This document shows, piece by piece, positions 5,108 to 50,664 of a stretch of DNA of 64,000 nt. Made by a program: the position numbers and the translations under genes. Source of the DNA: Escherichia phage ECBP1; the sequence record NC_018854.1; one strand, written 5' to 3'. A model generated the notes under the pieces. It made no database searches, had not been told where the DNA came from, and saw only the letters and a list, made by a program, of their open reading frames with translations. Numbering within the stretch: the stretch's first letter is position 1; every line of letters starts with the position of its first letter.

Positions 5108-6283
5108 ATGAACCAATTTCCTCAGCACACACTTAGTGATGAACAACTCATGCGCGAATATGACCGTATTCAGGCGCAGGCGTTTCTCGGACGCAGTGCT
5201 GCCTTCTTTGGTTCATTACTATGTAGTCTTAAATTCTCATGGAAACGTGAGGATTGTCCCACTGCATGTACTGATGGGATAGAACTCCATTTCAACCCAG
5301 ACTTCTTTATCTGGATGTGTCCAGATGCAAGGGAAACAGTATTAATGCATGAACTATGGCATGTGGCATATCTACATGACATCCGTCGTGGAAGCCGTGA
5401 CCCGGAAGTCTGGAACCAGGCATGTGACCACTTCATTAACCTTCAGTTAGAGGAGGATGGTTACAAGTTCACTGGTATTAATGAAGGCATTTGCAAAGAC
5501 CCTCAATATAAAGGATGGGTCGAAGAAGACATCTACGATGACCTGATGAAGAACCCTCAGAAAAGGCAGAAGCCGTCAGGGGGTGCTGGAGCAGGTCTTG
5601 CTGGCGACATGAAATCCCCCACTTCGGGACAGTCCCAGGGTGCTGTCGTCAACAACGTAGTACGTGCAATGCAGAGCCAGAAGATGGCTGGTGGAACAAT
5701 GCCCGGTAAGGGTGCTGGTCGTATGGAAGAGGTTATTACCCAATTCCTTAAACCAGTGGTTCCATGGCAAGAAGTACTCATGAACTTCTTTACCGACATT
5801 GATGACACTCACTATACGTGGGCCAGACCTAACCGTCGTTACACTGACATTTATCTACCTTCCCTGGAAGATGATGAAGGACGTCTACGACACCTAGCCT
5901 ACTTTGAGGATGTATCTGGTTCTATTAGTAGTGCTGACTCTCTGCGTTTTAACTCAGAGGTTGCCTACGTTAAGAGTCAATTCAATCCTAAGAAGATGAC
6001 CCTAATCACCTTCGACGATGTTATCCAGGAAGAAATAGACATCACTGAAGAAGATACTTTCGAAGAGATTAAGATTACTGGACGTGGTGGTACAAACCTG
6101 GAACCAGTACGCGAATGGATTATTAAGAATAAGCCAACCGCTGCAATCATATTCTCTGATATGTATGTTCGTCCAATGGAAGAATTGCCATTTGATATTC
6201 CTATCATCTGGTGTGTTCTGAATAATCCTAATGCTACCGTACCTTTTGGGGAGGTAGTTCATATCCCTAAAGGAATGAAATAA
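5108..6283 (+). CDS. vWA-domain protein with N-terminal HExxH putative metallopeptidase-like domain (MoxR partner)
   Basis: 'MHELWHVAYLHD' HExxH motif; Gly-rich linker; C-terminal vWA-like region; canonical pairing with upstream MoxR ATPase. Confidence 0.7.
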   Translation: MNQFPQHTLSDEQLMREYDRIQAQAFLGRSAAFFGSLLCSLKFSWKREDCPTACTDGIELHFNPDFFIWMCPDARETVLMHELWHVAYLHDIRRGSRDPEVWNQACDHFINLQLEEDGYKFTGINEGICKDPQYKGWVEEDIYDDLMKNPQKRQKPSGGAGAGLAGDMKSPTSGQSQGAVVNNVVRAMQSQKMAGGTMPGKGAGRMEEVITQFLKPVVPWQEVLMNFFTDIDDTHYTWARPNRRYTDIYLPSLEDDEGRLRHLAYFEDVSGSISSADSLRFNSEVAYVKSQFNPKKMTLITFDDVIQEEIDITEEDTFEEIKITGRGGTNLEPVREWIIKNKPTAAIIFSDMYVRPMEELPFDIPIIWCVLNNPNATVPFGEVVHIPKGMK

Positions 6284-21062: not shown

Positions 21063-21560
21063 ATGAAACAGAGGATTGCCCATGACAGGCTTTTACAGCT
21101 TGTTAGTTATGACCCTATTTCCGGGATTTTTACTCGTAGGAATACCGGAAAGGTATCTGGTTACCTAATGAAGAGTGGTTACGTTCAACTCCGTGTGGAT
21201 AGTGTGTTGTACTATGGGCATATCCTTGCATGGTTCTATGTGCACGGTGTATGGCCTACGGATAGAATTGACCATAAGGACAATATTCGCCATCACAACT
21301 GGATAGATAACCTCAGAGAAGCGACCCACAAGCAGAATAACCAGAGTGCTGTTTTATCTAAAACAAACACATCTGGATTTAAGGGGGTATCCTTTTCAAA
21401 GAATTTAGGTAAATACAGAGCAACTATTTGGGTTAACAGTAAACCAATTACATTAGGTTTTACAGATGACCCAAGAGAAGCTGCTGTTCTCTATGATGAA
21501 GCTGCTATAACTCATTATGGTGAGTTTGCTAAAACTAATAAGCAATTGGGACTGTTATGA
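21063..21560 (+). CDS. HNH homing endonuclease with AP2-type DNA-binding domain
   Basis: 'IDHKDNIRHHNWIDNLREATHKQNNQ' HNH_3 motif; 'FKGVSFSKNLGKYRATIWVNSKPITLGF' AP2 domain. Confidence 0.75.
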   Translation: MKQRIAHDRLLQLVSYDPISGIFTRRNTGKVSGYLMKSGYVQLRVDSVLYYGHILAWFYVHGVWPTDRIDHKDNIRHHNWIDNLREATHKQNNQSAVLSKTNTSGFKGVSFSKNLGKYRATIWVNSKPITLGFTDDPREAAVLYDEAAITHYGEFAKTNKQLGLL

Positions 21561-24743: not shown

Positions 24744-25496
24744 ATGTCCGAAGTAATTCCCAATGATATGAACACTCAGCTAATCCTGATTGCAGGATTC
24801 TCAGCGAGTGGTAAATCAGCATCACTGCGTAACATCAGGAACCAGGAACGCTGGCTCTATCTGAACACTGAGGCAGGTAAACGTCTACCTTTCCGTAACA
24901 AGTTCAATACCTACAACATCGAAGACCCATACCAAATCTGGGAAGCATTTGATGTTGCATCTCCTGGTGGAGAAATGGCAGATGATGTTGATGGTATCAT
25001 CATTGACTCAGCAACTTTTATGATGGATATGCTGGAATCCCAGTATGTTCTGCCTTCTGCAAACACGCAAAAGGCATGGGGGGATTTTGCACAGTTCTTT
25101 AAGATACTGCTGCAACAAAAAGTCGTTAAGTTTGGTAAGCCAGTAATCATTACTGCTCATGCTAAAGACGAACTGGATGAAGCTGCTGGTGTGATGAAAA
25201 CGTTCATCCCAGTGAAAGGCTCTCTGAAGAATAACGGGCTTGAAGCCTACTTCTCTACAGTGGTTTACGCAGAACGTGTAGACATTAAAGAACTGGAGAA
25301 GTATGGAAACAAGATGCTTGAAATTACGGAGGAAGAACGTGATTTAGGCTATAAACATGTATTCCAGACCCGTCCAACCAAGAAGTCTGTTGGTAAACGA
25401 CTTCGTTCTCCTATGGGTATGTTCGATAAGTCCGAGACTTACATTGATAACGATGCCCAGAAACTCTTAGACCACCTGGCTGAATACTACGCTTAA
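24744..25496 (+). CDS. P-loop NTPase (replication/recombination-associated)
   Basis: Walker A 'GFSASGKS'; Walker B-like 'GIIIDSA'. Confidence 0.5.
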   Translation: MSEVIPNDMNTQLILIAGFSASGKSASLRNIRNQERWLYLNTEAGKRLPFRNKFNTYNIEDPYQIWEAFDVASPGGEMADDVDGIIIDSATFMMDMLESQYVLPSANTQKAWGDFAQFFKILLQQKVVKFGKPVIITAHAKDELDEAAGVMKTFIPVKGSLKNNGLEAYFSTVVYAERVDIKELEKYGNKMLEITEEERDLGYKHVFQTRPTKKSVGKRLRSPMGMFDKSETYIDNDAQKLLDHLAEYYA

Positions 25497-25535: not shown

Positions 25536-26339
25536 ATGTCATTGTTCAGTAATCTGAAAGAAAAAACCAAAAACGTTGAAGCTGCTAAAGACTCTCTAGG
25601 TGGTGGTGGCTTCGGTGCAAAAGAAACCGATATCTACACTGGTACTGTAAAAGTAGCTTACGTAGGCAAAGCTGATTCTGGTGCAGACTGGATGCAGTTA
25701 ATTATTGAAGACCTGAAAAACTCTGATGGCGTGCCTGCTGGCGAGTTCCGTGCTCAGGTGTACTTCACTTCTGGTAATGCTAAAGGCAACAAGCCGACTT
25801 ACGAGAAAAATGGTAAAGAGTACTTCCTGCCTGGCTACACTGTCATTAACGACATGATGCTGATGGCTACTGGTACTGAACTGCCTGAAGCAGACTTCGA
25901 AGAGAAGATTGTTAAAGTCTACGACTACGACGCTAAAGCAGAAGTTAATAAATCTGTCATGGTTCCAGTTGACCTGGTAGGCCAGACTGTTACCTTCGCT
26001 CTGGAAAAAGTTCTGGAAAACAAGCAGGTTAAAGGCGACAACGGTTATGTAGACTCTGACGAAACTCGTGAAGTAAACGAGATTCAGAAAGTGTTTCACC
26101 CGGAACTGCTGGTCACAGTCGTCGAGGCTCAGGAAGCAGAGAAGGCTGAAAAAGAACTAACCCCAGAACTGGCTGTATTCTATGCAGCATGGCTGGAAAA
26201 GAACAAAGGCAAAACTCGTGACAAGACTAAGAGTTCTGCTGGTGGTAATGGTAAAGGTGGCTTGCCTCCTAAACCAGGTGCAGGTGCTGGCACGGGTACT
26301 GCTCCTGCTGGTGGTAAATCACTGTTTGGTAAACGTTAA
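25536..26339 (+). CDS. single-stranded DNA-binding protein (N4 gp45-like by size and position)
   Basis: 267 aa, Gly-rich N- and C-termini; gene order matches N4 SSB location. Confidence 0.5.
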   Translation: MSLFSNLKEKTKNVEAAKDSLGGGGFGAKETDIYTGTVKVAYVGKADSGADWMQLIIEDLKNSDGVPAGEFRAQVYFTSGNAKGNKPTYEKNGKEYFLPGYTVINDMMLMATGTELPEADFEEKIVKVYDYDAKAEVNKSVMVPVDLVGQTVTFALEKVLENKQVKGDNGYVDSDETREVNEIQKVFHPELLVTVVEAQEAEKAEKELTPELAVFYAAWLEKNKGKTRDKTKSSAGGNGKGGLPPKPGAGAGTGTAPAGGKSLFGKR

Positions 26340-26893
26340 TGAAAATCCCAATTGTCGGTGCAGACATTAGTCTCCGCAATTGGGGTTTAGCTCGTGGGAT
26401 GCTGGACATTGAGTCCGGCGTCTTCGAGCAGGTCGAACTTAAACTGGTTCAAACTGAAGTTGACCACAACAAACAAGTTCGAACCAACTCCAAAGATATA
26501 CAAGCCGCTCACGATTTGTTTCTTGGTTGTGAGGAATGGTTACGGTCTGCTAAAGCAGTATTCGTAGAAGTACCAGTAGGCTCTCAGTCTGCTAACGGTA
26601 TGAAATCCTATGGCGTATGCGTAGGATTAATAGGTGCATTTCGTGCATTGGGTTGTCCAATCTTTGAAGTATCCCCAATTGAAAACAAACTTGCACTGGT
26701 CGGTGATAAAACTGCATCTAAGGACACGATGATTCGTGCTGCTCATGCCATCTATCCTGAAGCCAACTGGCTCACAGATAAGAAGGGCAAACTTCTGAAT
26801 AAGAATGAGCACTTAGCTGATGCAATCGGTGCAATCCATGCTGGTGTAAATCTCCCAGCTTTCCAAAACCTCCTTAATTTAATAAAGGCATAA
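26339..26893 (+). CDS. RuvC-like Holliday junction resolvase
   Basis: N-terminal 'IVGADISLRNWG' and C-terminal 'EHLADAIGAIHAG' resemble RuvC catalytic motifs. Confidence 0.45.
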   Translation: MKIPIVGADISLRNWGLARGMLDIESGVFEQVELKLVQTEVDHNKQVRTNSKDIQAAHDLFLGCEEWLRSAKAVFVEVPVGSQSANGMKSYGVCVGLIGAFRALGCPIFEVSPIENKLALVGDKTASKDTMIRAAHAIYPEANWLTDKKGKLLNKNEHLADAIGAIHAGVNLPAFQNLLNLIKA

Positions 26894-26894
26894 C

Positions 26895-27335
26895 ATGCAA
26901 ATCATTTTGAACCAGTCCGAAGTAGAAGCTGCTGTACAGGCTTATGTCGATGATCAAATCAATCTTGCTGGTGACATCAATATTGTCATCAATGCAGACG
27001 GTACAGCTTCCGTTGGTATCAACGAAGAGGTTCATGAAGATACTCCACCCGTGGGAGTAGAGAAGAAAACTCGTCGTTCTCGTAAGAACCCACAGGAAGC
27101 TAAACATCGTCCGGTAGAACCAGAGCCGGAAGAAGTAGTTGAAGAGGTAAAGGTAGAAGAAACCCAGACCTCTACTGGTGGTCAGAACGAGAGTTCTACG
27201 CCGGAACCTGAAGAAGAAGCAGTATCTGAACCAGAAGCACAAGAAGAAGTTGTGCAGGAAGAGGCTAAGGCTGAAGAACCAGCAGAGAAACCTGCTACTA
27301 AGCCTTCACTGTTCGCTGGCCTTAAACGTAGTTAA
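26895..27335 (+). CDS. highly acidic Glu/Pro-rich protein
   Basis: 146 aa with long 'PEPEEVVEEVKVEE...EPEAQEEVVQEEAKAEEP' tract. Confidence 0.45.
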   Translation: MQIILNQSEVEAAVQAYVDDQINLAGDINIVINADGTASVGINEEVHEDTPPVGVEKKTRRSRKNPQEAKHRPVEPEPEEVVEEVKVEETQTSTGGQNESSTPEPEEEAVSEPEAQEEVVQEEAKAEEPAEKPATKPSLFAGLKRS

Positions 27336-27566
27336 TCTGGTAGGTGGCTCAGAAGCTGCTGCTAGGTGTGGTAGTGTTTATAGTCCTGATGCTACTACTG
27401 GTCAGGATTATAGACGTGTCGGCTCCATACATAGCTTTTATCATCACTGTCATTATCCTGTGGAAATGCAGTGGTAAACACGGTGGTGACAAGCCGCCAG
27501 AGTAACAACAACCGAACCAGTGTGCAGGAATACTCTCCCCTGTGCATTGGTTCAACTGAGGCTAAT

Positions 27567-27737: not shown

Positions 27738-28155
27738 TATCGTGAAGGGTTCTGTTAGAATCCTTTGAGATAGGAACTCCTATCATAACCTTTCTTATCT
27801 TAATCTTTGCCGTATGGCACTGACGCTAGGGTTTATGCCCATCCGTCAGGTAGACTATTTTAAGAATGGGTTATCACAGAAAATGTAAAGCAACATTCGG
27901 GTTAATCAATGGCCTCTCCCTATAGGGGCCATTTCTGAATGATAGGCTATATCCCAAAGGTTAGTATCTTTGGGATAAGGCTTCAGATCCCTTATCAAAC
28001 TAACCTCTCAATGTTGAGCATTTTAATCACATAAGCCCCTATATGGGCTGGGTTAAATGTCGGATAGCATAGCTACCTACAGCATCGAATTGTTAGGTCT
28101 TACATGCAACATAGGGTATAAAGGGAGGACTCGTCCCCTCCCTCCTATTATAATG

Positions 28156-28225
28156 GTCGAGGTAGCACGTAGGCATGTGCAGATGGTCGCTACTTCTCTC
28201 GCTGGTTCGAATCCAGCCCCCGACC
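28156..28225 (+). tRNA. tRNA-like element, probably degenerate tRNA
   Basis: 7-bp acceptor (one A-C mismatch), U8-A9, D-arm GCAC/GTGC, canonical T-arm GCTGG-TTCGAAT-CCAGC; anticodon stem pairs poorly. Confidence 0.3.
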
Positions 28226-49443: not shown

Positions 49444-50664
49444 TTAAAGACTACCCGGTACTGGGAGTTTAGCGAAATCTTCATCACTCATAGCGAGTGG
49501 GTTTACAATAGGCGTTGCTTTACGTGTAGCAGCCCGATTAAGGGAAGCTGCTTTAGCTTGCTCACTGTTAGCCAGAGTCTGCTTAGGTTGTGCTACACGC
49601 ACTACCGGCTGAACTGCTGGTTTAACTGCTTGTACTGGTTCAGGCTTAGACACTTGGTTAAATGCTCCCTGCTGTGCAAGAAGGTTACCAACGTAGTTAT
49701 AAGCCTGAATAAACGGAGTACCTACCGGAATCTGACCTAACACCTGAAGACGATTCACTTCATTAGCAATGGTGTCATAAATACCATTCTCACGCTGTTC
49801 GTGAATGGTGTGGAGTAAGCCACGATTCTGATAAAGAGCATCTTTACTGGCAGCATCCCATGTCGAGCTAATAACACCTAATGTAGCTTGTCCTTCTTGA
49901 GTAGACTTTAAGTCGTCAATTTCGGTTGCAAAATCTGCTTCGGTGTCTGTAACACGGTGTTTGCCACCCTGGTAGTTAATTTCCTCTTCCGGATTAAAGT
50001 CCAGAGGATCTGTACCAGAGTCTTTCAACAACTTTTTAATGGCTTCAGGATTCTTCTTATCCAGGTCAATCAGGAAAGAAAGTTTTTCCTCATCCATTAA
50101 ACCGTTGTTCTGTAACATCAGCATTACCTTACGGTACGGCTGAAGTTCTTGCATCTTACGAGTATAGTTAGCACCCATCTGCATCAGGCTAATGGCCTCC
50201 TCCGGTGAACGGGGAGTAATCATTTTGCCGTTAGCTTTAAAAGGAGCCATCAACTTCTCATAACCTTCCTTATAGTTGAAGTCAGCAGGCAGACCTTCAG
50301 ACTGTTTGCCTTCTTCTTTCTGTTCCTGGCCTGGTTCAGCAGTAGAAGGTTCAGCTTCAGTAATCGGCTTACCGTTACTATCAACTTCTGTGTCAACAAC
50401 TTTATCATCAACTTTATCAGAAGTTAAAGAATTTGCTGAATCATCTTCATCTGCGTCAGTTTCGGGGGAGGTTTCTTCGGTTGGTAGGTCTTCAACAGCA
50501 GGGGTGTCAATTTCTTCATCAGGAGTCTGTACGCCATTGGTTTCTGGGTTGTTCTGAGTGGAAGTATCTTCCTCAGCAATAATAGCTGGGGCTTCCATAT
50601 TCAGAATCTCATCATCCGACATTGCGAGAATGTCGGAAGCTGTGGTTGCAGCTTCCGTAGTCAT
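49444..50664 (-). CDS. putative scaffolding protein
   Basis: 406 aa, strongly acidic N-terminal half, located between portal and capsid genes. Confidence 0.45.
   Translation of the reverse strand: MTTEAATTASDILAMSDDEILNMEAPAIIAEEDTSTQNNPETNGVQTPDEEIDTPAVEDLPTEETSPETDADEDDSANSLTSDKVDDKVVDTEVDSNGKPITEAEPSTAEPGQEQKEEGKQSEGLPADFNYKEGYEKLMAPFKANGKMITPRSPEEAISLMQMGANYTRKMQELQPYRKVMLMLQNNGLMDEEKLSFLIDLDKKNPEAIKKLLKDSGTDPLDFNPEEEINYQGGKHRVTDTEADFATEIDDLKSTQEGQATLGVISSTWDAASKDALYQNRGLLHTIHEQRENGIYDTIANEVNRLQVLGQIPVGTPFIQAYNYVGNLLAQQGAFNQVSKPEPVQAVKPAVQPVVRVAQPKQTLANSEQAKAASLNRAATRKATPIVNPLAMSDEDFAKLPVPGSL

What the first reader, a model, noticed from the sequence alone, without database searches (positions are those of the whole stretch)
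26895..27335. Highly acidic Glu/Pro-rich protein after the resolvase gene
The protein carries a long PEPEEVVEEV...EPEAQEEVVQEE tract with a strong net negative charge. Such proteins can act as DNA mimics (anti-restriction or nucleoid-protein decoys) or flexible acidic linkers; the location next to replication genes makes either plausible.
Basis: inference. Interest (0 to 1): 0.4.

Follow-up and report, generated by a model that had tools for sequence, protein, structure and literature searches.

The report
Acidic tether protein sharing SSB's tip
The acidic protein is real, but its acidic tract is a floppy spacer between a small folded head and a nearly invariant tail peptide, and that peptide also caps both ends of the phage's DNA-binding protein, which makes this unstudied N4 gp47-family protein look like an adaptor rather than a DNA mimic.

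Summary
The window is an N4-like coliphage (Gamaleyavirus, 99% identical to Bp4/PD38). ORF 26895-27335 (+) is real: 146 aa, net charge -20, the most acidic protein of the window, dN/dS 0.16-0.31. It is the ortholog of N4 gp47, which has no assigned function.

The family is large (712 clusters at 50% identity) and every locus examined was N4-like. It has four parts:
- a folded head of about 45 aa (pLDDT about 90, no known fold relative);
- a short basic patch;
- a disordered linker of 23-119 aa that is always net-acidic but not conserved in sequence;
- a near-invariant C-terminal peptide, [KR]xS[LI]F[AG][GN]L[KR][KR].

The same SLF peptide sits at both ends of the N4-type SSB two genes upstream (MSLFSNLK..., ...KSLFGKR). 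A review states that the SSB C-terminal residues are needed to activate host RNA polymerase.

The gene always follows a Holliday-junction resolvase of one of three kinds, and it is fused to the RusA-like kind.

Best reading (inferred, not shown): a flexible adaptor that plugs into the same unidentified receptor as the SSB tips and works with the resolvase. A folded DNA mimic or anti-restriction role has no support. The "flexible acidic linker" reading does.

The parts
26895..27335 (+). Whole gene: ortholog of N4 gp47 / G7C gp47 / Bp4 orf35 (146 aa plus stop)
   Evidence: ORF. 100% identical to Bp4 orf35 and PD38. G7C gp47 is annotated 'similar to N4 gp47'. PHROG 7641, E = 6.5e-68, full length. 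dN/dS 0.16-0.31.
26884..26888 (+). Shine-Dalgarno AAAGG. The gp46 stop TAA is at 26891-26893, 1 nt before the ATG, so the two genes are tightly coupled.
   Evidence: Sequence. No promoter-like or terminator-like site above chance between gp44 and gp47.
26895..27032 (+). N-terminal folded domain, residues 1-46 (strand, helix 7-21, hairpin 28-32/38-42)
27033..27119 (+). Basic patch, residues 47-75 (TPPV...EKKTRRSRKNPQEAKHRPV), net +3
   Evidence: dN/dS 0.03-0.16. The EAKH[RV] motif is kept in 12 of 150 representatives, the enterobacterial clade. The first third of the linker is net-positive family-wide, median +2.
27120..27299 (+).
   Evidence: pLDDT 52-65. Disordered side of the charge-hydropathy plot. 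Indels concentrate here and identity is lowest. dN/dS 0.31-0.65. Always net-negative in the family, but its sequence is not conserved.
27300..27332 (+). C-terminal tip peptide KPSLFAGLKRS, residues 136-146
   Evidence: No non-synonymous change against five relatives. 99% identity among 135 close relatives. S[LI]F is near the C-terminus in 147 of 150 family representatives, and the other three are truncated fragments. pLDDT about 80, and 84-86 without the N-domain.
26339..26893 (+). Upstream partner gene: RuvC-like Holliday-junction resolvase (N4 gp46 homolog)
   Evidence: PHROG 159, E = 3e-42. The order resolvase then gp47 is kept in all 46 loci, and the RusA-like resolvase is fused to the module in one clade.
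25536..26339 (+). N4-type SSB (gp45 homolog), which carries the same peptide at both ends
   Evidence: PHROG 743, E = 3e-89. Sequence.
25539..25559 (+). SSB N-terminal tip SLFSNLK (residues 2-8)
   Evidence: M(S)[LIM]F[GSNK]xL[KT] is conserved at the SSB N-terminus across loci. The string SLFGNLK at the SSB N-terminus of Zuri and L011 is identical to the gp47 tip of P0186, P0161 and P0169.
26310..26336 (+). SSB C-terminal tip GGKSLFGKR (residues 259-267)
   Evidence: 30 of 32 distinct SSB homologs carry [SK][LI]F in their last 14 residues. [quoted passage not shown]
24744..25496 (+). Sak4-like / AAA_24 ATPase (gp44 homolog), the first gene of the conserved block gp44-SSB-resolvase-gp47
   Evidence: Pfam AAA_24, E = 5e-11. 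Synteny.

Best explanation
The gene encodes the Gamaleyavirus ortholog of N4 gp47. This is a conserved, uncharacterised protein found only in N4-like (Schitoviridae-type) contexts in every locus examined, and it is built as a tethered short linear motif.

Shown here:
- It has four parts: a folded head of about 45 aa, a short basic patch, a long disordered net-acidic spacer of free length and sequence, and a nearly invariant C-terminal peptide [KR]xS[LI]F[AG][GN]L[KR][KR].
- The same peptide caps both ends of the N4-type SSB encoded two genes upstream.
- The gene always follows a Holliday-junction resolvase gene, and it is fused to the resolvase in the RusA-like clade.

Inferred:
- The tip binds the same receptor as the SSB tips. 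That receptor is unidentified. Candidates are the host RNA polymerase beta' C-terminal region, the SSB core itself, another conserved phage replication protein, or the host beta clamp.
- The head plus basic patch anchors the protein elsewhere, most simply on DNA or at the resolvase.
- gp47 would then act as a flexible adaptor or competitor, linking resolution of recombination and replication intermediates to the SSB-centred hub.
- The acidic tract serves as a spacer and electrostatic element: it keeps the basic ends apart, repels DNA, and perhaps masks the basic patch. It is not a folded DNA mimic.
For: Identity and reality:
- 99% DNA identity to Bp4/PD38. Bp4 orf35 corresponds to G7C gp47, which is annotated as similar to N4 gp47.
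- dN/dS is 0.16-0.31 overall: 0.05-0.11 in the head, 0 in the tip, 0.31-0.65 in the linker.

Family:
- A profile search of 1.84 billion representatives gave 712 clusters at E <= 1e-3, mostly 130-180 aa and matched end to end.
- 147 of 150 keep S[LI]F near the C-terminus.
- The linker is median 88 aa (range 23-119), net charge median -10 and never >= 0, basic at its start (+2) and acidic after (-12).

Structure:
- The head is confident, the linker is disordered, and the tip shows a confidence bump.
- The bump persists without the head, pLDDT 84-86. This is the pattern expected of a motif that folds on binding a partner.

Shared tip:
- In the 64-kb window, SLF within 10 residues of a protein end occurs only in the SSB (both ends) and gp47.
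- Over 46 loci, 30 of 32 SSBs and 28 of 32 gp47s have [SK][LI]F in the last 14 residues, against 3 of 289 other ORF products.
- Lineage-specific variants run in parallel. L038 has KRSLF in both. L041 has RPSLF and KPSLF. The marine clade has KKLFG* in the SSB and KSIFSK..* in gp47.
- A review of N4 states that N4SSB C-terminal residues are essential for late activation and that N4SSB binds the beta' C-terminus (PMC4496689).

Link to the resolvase:
- The block gp44-SSB-resolvase-gp47 is present in all loci.
- The resolvase is N4 gp46-type RuvC-like, or a different canonical GIDPG-type RuvC, or RusA-like and then fused to the module.
- All five fusion contigs are N4-like.
Against: - No binding was tested, and the receptor is unknown.
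- The shared motif is short (3-7 residues). Its parallel variation in SSB and gp47 is only partial and is confounded by shared ancestry.
- The fusion could be a tolerated accident of two adjacent, translationally coupled genes. All five fusions keep a Shine-Dalgarno and a start codon at the module boundary, so the free module may be the functional form.
- The head domain is nearly the same next to three unrelated resolvases. This argues against a specific head-resolvase contact.
- The RusA assignment rests on PHROG profiles. Pfam RusA reaches only E = 0.1, and hhalign against E. coli RusA gives a low probability, although the alignment falls on the catalytic core.
- The head domain has no fold relative, so its role is a guess.
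Confidence: 0.45

Rival explanations
1. DNA mimic. The acidic tract imitates the DNA backbone and blocks a host DNA-binding protein such as a type I restriction enzyme or H-NS-like nucleoid protein, as Ocr and ArdA do.
For: Strong net negative charge (-20) that is conserved as a property in the whole family. There is a weak periodicity of acidic residues of about 4.8 residues, reached by 14 of 1000 shuffles.
Against: - No Pfam family passes its threshold, Ocr and ArdA included.
- The acidic part is predicted disordered, not a rigid charged surface.
- Its sequence and length are free to vary.
- The parts under selection are the head, the basic patch and the basic-hydrophobic tip.
- The gene lies in the replication/recombination block next to SSB and the resolvase, not with early host-takeover genes.
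- This idea explains neither the tip shared with the SSB nor the fusion to a resolvase.
Confidence: 0.08
2. Regulator of the SSB itself. The tip docks on the SSB core at the site used by the SSB's own N- and C-terminal arms for self-association. The acidic tail then acts as a single-stranded-DNA-like competitor. gp47 would chaperone free SSB, cap SSB filaments, or unload SSB where the resolvase must act.
For: - The SSB carries the motif at both ends, behind flexible Gly-rich segments.
- The string SLFGNLK is identical between SSB N-termini and some gp47 tips.
- The receptor would be present in every genome that has gp47.
- Acidic tails that compete with ssDNA are known from T7 gp2.5 and E. coli SSB (established knowledge).
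- Clade-specific parallel changes fit a phage-encoded receptor.
Against: - There is no structure or interaction test.
- The literature assigns the N4SSB C-terminus to RNA polymerase activation, not to self-association.
- The tip is almost unchanged between phages whose SSBs are only distantly similar.
Confidence: 0.2
3. Second ligand of host RNA polymerase. The tip binds the beta' C-terminal region as N4SSB is reported to. gp47 would tune or time late transcription as co-activator or antagonist, and its acidic tail would act near the polymerase nucleic-acid channels.
For: N4SSB C-terminal residues are essential for late activation and N4SSB binds a highly conserved beta' region (PMC4496689). 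The gp47 tip is the same kind of peptide. Its very high conservation across phages of Escherichia, Pseudomonas, Rhizobium, Achromobacter and Erwinia fits a universally conserved host target.
Against: - It is not shown that the SLF residues themselves contact beta'.
- A transcription role does not explain the constant pairing with, and fusion to, resolvases.
- No transcription data were found for gp47.
Confidence: 0.15
4. Host sliding-clamp binder. The C-terminal xxSLF after a flexible linker is a degenerate beta-clamp-binding motif that brings SSB and the resolvase-associated module to DnaN.
For: Canonical clamp-binding motifs are QLSLF or QxxLF, and in some polymerases only xxxLF is kept. In PolC the motif is C-terminal (PMC12309361). 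The S-L-F core and the C-terminal position match.
Against: Positions 1 and 2 are K/R/P instead of Q and a hydrophobic residue. N4 is reported to inhibit the host clamp loader (Yano and Rothman-Denes 2011, title seen), which makes use of the host clamp less likely. The conserved +5 Leu and the basic residues after it are not part of the clamp motif.
Confidence: 0.07

Closest known systems
Bacteriophage N4 gp47 (YP_950525) and its PHROG families 7641 / 18842
   Same: Homologous over the full length, with the same place in the genome after gp46, the same head domain and the same tip.
   Different: Nothing is known about its function. The deposited N4 sequence is out of frame at the C-terminus, which hides the conserved tip. 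The window protein belongs to the enterobacterial sub-clade with a divergent hairpin and an extra TPPV...EAKHRPV patch.
C-terminal activation region of N4 SSB (gp45)
   Same: The peptide [KR]xSLF[GA]..[KR] sits at the extreme C-terminus behind a disordered linker, is encoded in the same operon, and is conserved in the same set of phages.
   Different: The SSB linker is Gly/Pro/Ala-rich and neutral to basic, whereas the gp47 linker is acidic. The gp47 tip is longer (SLFAGLK[KR]P) and looks more like the SSB N-terminal arm. gp47 has no ssDNA-binding domain that could be recognised.
E. coli SSB: disordered linker plus C-terminal tip used as an interaction hub (established knowledge)
   Same: The architecture is folded domain, low-complexity disordered linker of free sequence, then an invariant terminal peptide. 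The tip is shared logic for recruiting or competing partners.
   Different: The chemistry is reversed. The E. coli tip is acidic (DDDIPF) on a neutral linker. Here the tip is basic-hydrophobic on an acidic linker. There is no OB fold, and the family is unrelated.
T4 / RB69 clamp-binding C-terminal tails shared by DNA polymerase gp43 and late-transcription factors gp33 and gp55 (recalled, not tested here)
   Same: One short hydrophobic terminal peptide is reused on several phage proteins so that replication and late transcription converge on one receptor.
   Different: N4-like phages encode no clamp that I could see in the window, and the receptor here is unknown. The resemblance is by analogy only.
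DNA-mimic proteins Ocr (T7 gp0.3) and ArdA
   Same: Small, very acidic phage or plasmid proteins.
   Different: Those are folded, rigid, dimeric charge arrays encoded by early genes. Here the acidic part is disordered and unconserved, the gene lies in the replication block, and there is no sequence relationship.
Acidic-tail regulators next to basic DNA-binding segments (HMGB1, HMGA, T7 gp2.5 tail; established knowledge)
   Same: A basic segment is followed by a long acidic disordered tail, and intramolecular electrostatic masking is possible.
   Different: No HMG box, OB fold or AT-hook is present in the window protein. An RGRP core occurs in only 3 of 150 family members. In gp47 the tail ends in a conserved basic-hydrophobic peptide.

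Membership tests
N4 gp47 family (PHROG 7641) | Full-length sequence homology | tested here: met
   PHROG 7641, E = 6.5e-68, residues 1-146 on profile 1-151. Alignment with N4, G7C, KP8, Moo19, Jgk1 and Zuri.
N4 gp47 family (PHROG 7641) | Position directly after the resolvase gene in the block Sak4-SSB-resolvase-gp47 | tested here: met
   All 46 loci, and the window.
N4 gp47 family (PHROG 7641) | C-terminal peptide [KR]xS[LI]F[AG][GN]L[KR][KR] | tested here: met
   KPSLFAGLKRS at residues 136-146. 147 of 150 representatives have it.
DNA-mimic anti-restriction proteins (Ocr, ArdA) | Sequence membership in the Ocr or ArdA families | tested here: not met
   No Pfam family passes its threshold for the protein or for 60 family members.
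DNA-mimic anti-restriction proteins (Ocr, ArdA) | Acidic residues displayed on a rigid folded surface | tested here: not met
   AF2 gives pLDDT 52-65 for the acidic part and no secondary structure, with and without the head. This is a prediction only.
DNA-mimic anti-restriction proteins (Ocr, ArdA) | Inhibition of restriction enzymes or nucleoid proteins | not testable with these tools
   Needs expression and restriction-protection or binding assays.
SSB-type 'disordered linker plus terminal tip' interaction module | Disordered linker of free sequence and length | tested here: met
SSB-type 'disordered linker plus terminal tip' interaction module | Invariant peptide at the extreme terminus, also present on other proteins of the same system | tested here: met
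SSB-type 'disordered linker plus terminal tip' interaction module | Demonstrated binding of the tip to partner proteins | not testable with these tools
   No multimer prediction or experiment was available. The tip confidence bump is independent of the head.
Bacterial beta-clamp-binding motif (QL[SD]LF / QxxLF) | Gln at position 1 and a hydrophobic residue at position 2 | tested here: not met
   Both positions are mostly K, R or P.
Bacterial beta-clamp-binding motif (QL[SD]LF / QxxLF) | S/D-L-F core, often at a flexible C-terminus | tested here: met
   S 140 of 142, L/I 142 of 142, F 142 of 142. For comparison, see PMC12309361.
DNABII (HU/IHF) fold for the head domain | Profile-profile similarity to HU/IHF | tested here: not met
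   hhalign probability 1%.
AT-hook / HMGA-like | RGRP core flanked by basic residues | tested here: not met
   Absent from the window protein and present in only 3 of 150 family members.
Resolvase accessory subunit or domain | Constant gene adjacency and fusion to a Holliday-junction resolvase | tested here: met
   Adjacency. Fusions to a RusA-like domain in 9 of 150 representatives and in Rhizobium phages. The RusA call rests on PHROG profiles and is weak in Pfam.
Resolvase accessory subunit or domain | Physical or functional interaction with the resolvase | not testable with these tools
   Needs co-purification or junction-cleavage assays with and without gp47.

The most novel reading that the evidence does not exclude
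gp47 is a second carrier of the N4SSB 'activation' peptide. It would occupy the same site on host RNA polymerase (beta' C-terminal region) as the SSB, with its acidic disordered tail acting as a nucleic-acid-like element at the polymerase. The phage would thereby couple resolution of branched replication intermediates, through the neighbouring or fused resolvase, to the switch to late transcription. This would be a recombination-to-transcription checkpoint built from one reusable peptide.
Probability: 0.12. Interest if true: 0.75.

Novelty: new variant of a known kind. Interest (0 to 1): 0.5.

Why it matters
N4 is a classic model system, and N4-like phages are a large group that includes many isolates characterised for phage therapy. 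How the N4 SSB uses its C-terminus to switch on host RNA polymerase has never been explained structurally.

Three observations turn a 'hypothetical acidic protein' into a concrete set of peptide-level experiments:
- The same terminal peptide sits on both ends of the SSB.
- It also sits on a conserved protein of unknown function.
- That protein always travels with a Holliday-junction resolvase and is sometimes fused to it.

The questions that follow are which protein is the receptor, and whether SSB and gp47 compete for it.

The finding also warns against reading acidic low-complexity tracts as DNA mimics. Here the acidic part is the least constrained element.

Tried and rejected
1. The tip docks on gp47's own head domain. 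A control model without the head kept the tip confidence (84-86 against about 80), so cis-docking is not supported.
2. The head domain is a mini HU/IHF. hhalign gave a probability of 1%, so this is rejected.
4. The head profile has a weak, non-significant sequence resemblance to the first strand and helix of ribosome-associated protein Y/YfiA (E 0.2-0.4; Pfam S30AE E = 0.14 in 3 of 60 members). This is a lead only.
5. Mutual information between tip and head columns was dominated by clade structure and was uninformative.
6. The basic patch as an AT-hook: RGRP occurs in 3 of 150 members and not in the window protein.
7. The tract as a tandem-repeat DNA artefact: none found.
8. Promoter and terminator scans found nothing above chance.
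9. Independent confirmation of RusA identity for the fusion partner was weak. A PDB sequence search found no RusA. Pfam RusA reached E = 0.1. The assignment therefore rests on PHROG profiles.
10. Literature searches for gp47 in N4-like phages found only gene tables. The Ab09 'gp47' in a 2026 preprint is an unrelated tail-fibre chaperone.

Full report
WHAT THE WINDOW IS. The region 24.7-28.0 kb is 99% identical to Escherichia phages Bp4 and PD38 (Schitoviridae, Gamaleyavirus). The window also holds the 3576-aa virion RNA polymerase ORF typical of N4-like phages. The local gene order is primase (N4 gp43), Sak4-like AAA_24 ATPase (gp44, 24744-25496), N4-type SSB (gp45, 25536-26339), RuvC-like resolvase (gp46, 26339-26893), then the ORF in question at 26895-27335. 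This ORF is Bp4 orf35. Its G7C counterpart is annotated gp47, 'similar to N4 gp47'.

The ORF is 146 aa with 29 Glu, 5 Asp and 12 Pro, and a net charge of -20. Both quoted strings are present. It is the most acidic of 66 non-overlapping ORFs in the window per residue, z = -3.1. The tract is not a tandem DNA repeat. The ATG lies 1 nt after the gp46 stop codon and has an AAAGG Shine-Dalgarno. Whole-gene dN/dS against five relatives is 0.16-0.31. The antisense 122-aa ORF at 26874-27242 is the Phe/Leu-rich mirror image of the GAA-rich sense strand.

ANATOMY. Aligning relatives from E. coli, Shigella, Klebsiella and Pseudomonas phages, and from N4, shows that the acidic tract is the least conserved part. 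Four segments emerge:
- Residues 1-46 form a folded head. AF2 with a 60-sequence alignment gives pLDDT 89-94, a helix at 7-21 and a hairpin at 28-32/38-42. dN/dS is 0.05-0.11.
- Residues 47-75 form a basic patch, TPPV...EKKTRRSRKNPQEAKHRPV, with net +3 and dN/dS 0.03-0.16. The EAKH[RV] signature is limited to the enterobacterial clade, 12 of 150 representatives.
- Residues 76-135 are the acidic tract, net -18 and pLDDT 52-65. It lies on the disordered side of the charge-hydropathy plot, holds nearly all indels, and has dN/dS 0.31-0.65.
- Residues 136-146 are the tip, KPSLFAGLKRS. It has no non-synonymous change in five comparisons and is 99% identical among 135 close relatives.

THE FAMILY. 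Pfam has nothing above threshold. PHROG 7641, of unknown function, matches at E = 6.5e-68. A profile search of 1.84 billion representative proteins found 712 clusters at E <= 1e-3 and 116 at <= 1e-10. Most are 130-180 aa and match from first to last residue. Of the 150 best, 147 keep S[LI]F close to the C-terminus, and the other three are truncated fragments. The logo is [KRP][KRP]-S-[LI]-F-[AG]-[GN]-L-[KR]-[KR]-P-x-N.

The linker in 145 of these has a median length of 88 aa (range 23-119). Its composition is dominated by Ala, Glu, Pro, Thr and Val, with 0.4% aromatics. Net charge has a median of -10 and is never >= 0. There is a constant polarity: the first third is net +2 and the rest is net -12. 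Acidity is therefore a selected property and the sequence is not.

tblastn against isolated phages finds the family in 68-78-kb phages of Escherichia, Shigella, Klebsiella, Salmonella, Erwinia, Pseudomonas, Achromobacter, Rhizobium, Agrobacterium, Xanthomonas and Stenotrophomonas. Every locus I inspected, 46 in all, is N4-like.

THE TIP IS SHARED WITH THE SSB. The SSB two genes upstream begins MSLFSNLKEK and ends GGKSLFGKR. N4, KP8, Moo19, Jgk1 and Zuri show the same pattern.
- In the 64-kb window, SLF within 10 residues of the end of a real protein occurs only at these three places.
- Over 46 loci, 30 of 32 distinct SSBs and 28 of 32 distinct gp47s carry [SK][LI]F in their last 14 residues. 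The figures are 0 of 33 for gp44, 0 of 19 for gp46 and 3 of 237 for other ORF products.
- The string SLFGNLK is identical between some SSB N-termini (Zuri, L011) and some gp47 tips (P0186, P0161, P0169).
- Lineage variants partly run in parallel. L038 has KRSLFGAKK and KRSLFKDMKRPA. L041 has RPSLFGKK and KPSLFANLGK. A marine clade has KKLFG* and KSIFSK..*.

A review of N4 transcription states that the ssDNA-binding activity of N4SSB is dispensable for late activation. [quoted passage not shown] I could not find residue-level data in the library, so it is not established that S, L and F themselves make that contact.

THE LINK TO RESOLVASES. The slot between SSB and gp47 is always filled by a junction resolvase, but not always the same one. 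There are three kinds:
- the N4 gp46-type RuvC-like protein in enterobacterial and Pseudomonas phages;
- a different 157-aa canonical RuvC with GIDPGFTG...KDDGRAEA motifs in six marine or metagenomic loci;
- a RusA-like domain, in which case the gp47 module is fused to its C-terminus. This occurs in 9 of the 150 best representatives (255-313 aa), in Rhizobium phages annotated 'RusA-like Holliday junction resolvase', and in a roseophage.

The RusA label rests on PHROG profiles, with E down to 1e-40 and 2e-18 for phrog_34. Pfam RusA reaches only E = 0.1.

In all five fusion genes whose DNA I read, an AAGGAG-like Shine-Dalgarno lies 6-9 nt before an ATG or TTG exactly at the start of the module. 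These genes probably yield both the fusion and the free module. The head domain is almost identical whichever resolvase is next door. This argues that the module recognises something common to all these phages rather than the resolvase itself.

WHAT I TESTED ABOUT MECHANISM. The tip has a raised AF2 confidence of about 80 in the full model. I asked whether this reflects docking on the head. A control model of residues 50-146 with the trimmed alignment kept it at 84-86. The signal is therefore intrinsic to the motif, and cis-docking is not supported.

BEST EXPLANATION AND RIVALS. What is shown is the four-part architecture, the selection pattern, the tip shared with both SSB ends, and the constant pairing or fusion with resolvases.

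What I infer is that gp47 is a tethered-peptide adaptor. The tip plugs into the receptor used by the SSB tips. The head plus basic patch holds on elsewhere, most simply to DNA. The acidic tract is the flexible, DNA-repelling spacer between them. I give this 0.45.

Within or beside it sit more specific versions: the receptor is the SSB core (0.2), RNA polymerase beta' (0.15), or the host beta clamp (0.07). For the clamp, the S-L-F core and C-terminal position match QLSLF/xxxLF motifs (PMC12309361). However, positions 1-2 are K/R/P, and N4 is reported to target the clamp loader (title seen).

There is no family match, no predicted rigid surface and no sequence conservation. The genomic neighbourhood is wrong for it, and it explains neither the tip nor the fusions.

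COMPARISON WITH THE KNOWN. The closest analogue in design is the bacterial SSB with its disordered linker and terminal tip hub, but the chemistry is inverted: here an acidic linker carries a basic-hydrophobic tip. In logic the closest analogue is the reuse of one terminal peptide on several T4/RB69 replication and late-transcription proteins, which I recall from the literature and did not test. By descent the protein is simply a member of the N4 gp47 family, whose function is unknown. I found no paper that describes the architecture, the shared tip or the fusions.

VERDICT. The real interest lies outside the acidic tract. I rate novelty as a new variant of a known kind, the tethered terminal-peptide adaptor, and interest at 0.5.

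Noticed in passing
L006 (N4 NC_008720) 5679-6113, i.e. record 31678-32112: The deposited N4 gp47 ends ...EEEKKYRKKRLKNQYKPNLLCLQV*. The +1 frame reads ...KEVQEEEAKEPVQAKPSLFAGLKR*, and a metagenomic N4-type protein (P0122, 147 aa) has that ending in frame. The reference therefore has a 1-nt indel in a GAAGAAGAAAAGAAG run, either a sequencing error or a strain mutation, and it hides the conserved tip.
   Followed up: partly
L042-L046 (RusA::gp47 fusion genes), e.g. L042 2726-3637, module start at codon 134: All five fusion genes keep an AAGGAG-like Shine-Dalgarno 6-9 nt before an ATG or TTG exactly at the first codon of the gp47 module. The ORF probably makes both the resolvase fusion and the free module. 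The junction peptide K/S-E-E/D-D/N is the translation of that Shine-Dalgarno.
   Followed up: partly
window 25536-26339 (SSB), residues 2-8 and 259-267: The N4-type SSB carries the SLF peptide at both ends (MSLFSNLK... and ...KSLFGKR), each behind a Gly-rich flexible segment. I did not find the N-terminal copy mentioned in the literature I could search.
   Followed up: partly
window 27344-27505 (+): A 53-aa ORF with a GTG start lies directly after gp47. It has a hydrophobic membrane-like core (MAQKLLLGVVVFIVLMLLLVRIID...) and matches PHROG 19025. A near-identical ORF exists in N4 at the same place but is not annotated there.
   Followed up: partly
L003 (Pseudomonas phage Zuri MK863032) 1155-2959; also OY979416 and OY978778: Product names are shifted by one gene in Zuri. 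'DNA repair protein' is the SSB, 'ssDNA binding protein' is the RuvC-like resolvase, and 'Holliday junction resolvase' is the gp47 homolog. Two Klebsiella phage records label the gp47 homolog 'tail spike protein' and 'RIIA lysis inhibitor'.
   Followed up: yes
window 28155-29373: ARAGORN calls three tRNA genes with unusual anticodons: Ala(cgc), Cys(aca) and Ile(aat). They lie in the non-coding stretch between gp47 and the gp48 homolog, the place where N4 keeps its tRNA genes.
   Followed up: no
L027, L031, L033, L034, L036, L039 (between SSB and gp47 homologs): In these marine or metagenomic N4-like loci the N4 gp46-type resolvase is replaced by an unrelated-looking 157-aa canonical RuvC (GIDPGFTG...KDDGRAEAALIALYG). 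This is a non-orthologous replacement in a fixed genomic slot.
   Followed up: partly
window 26895-27335 versus G7C (L014 6001-6447): Synonymous divergence is very uneven inside the gene. dS is about 1.2 in the head codons and about 0.22 in the acidic-linker codons. This suggests a recombination breakpoint within the gene or a constraint on the GA-rich DNA.
   Followed up: no
window 49444-50664 (-): A 406-aa ORF next to the major capsid gene has net charge -37 and a 40-aa stretch of net -16 (PDEEIDTPAVEDLPTEETSPETDADEDD...). That stretch is more acidic than any 40-aa stretch of gp47.
   Followed up: no
window 21063-21560 (+): An HNH homing-endonuclease gene is inserted between the gp41 and gp42 homologs, as annotated in Bp4. 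G7C instead has an HNH gene just after gp47. The replication block is therefore a hotspot for such insertions.
   Followed up: no
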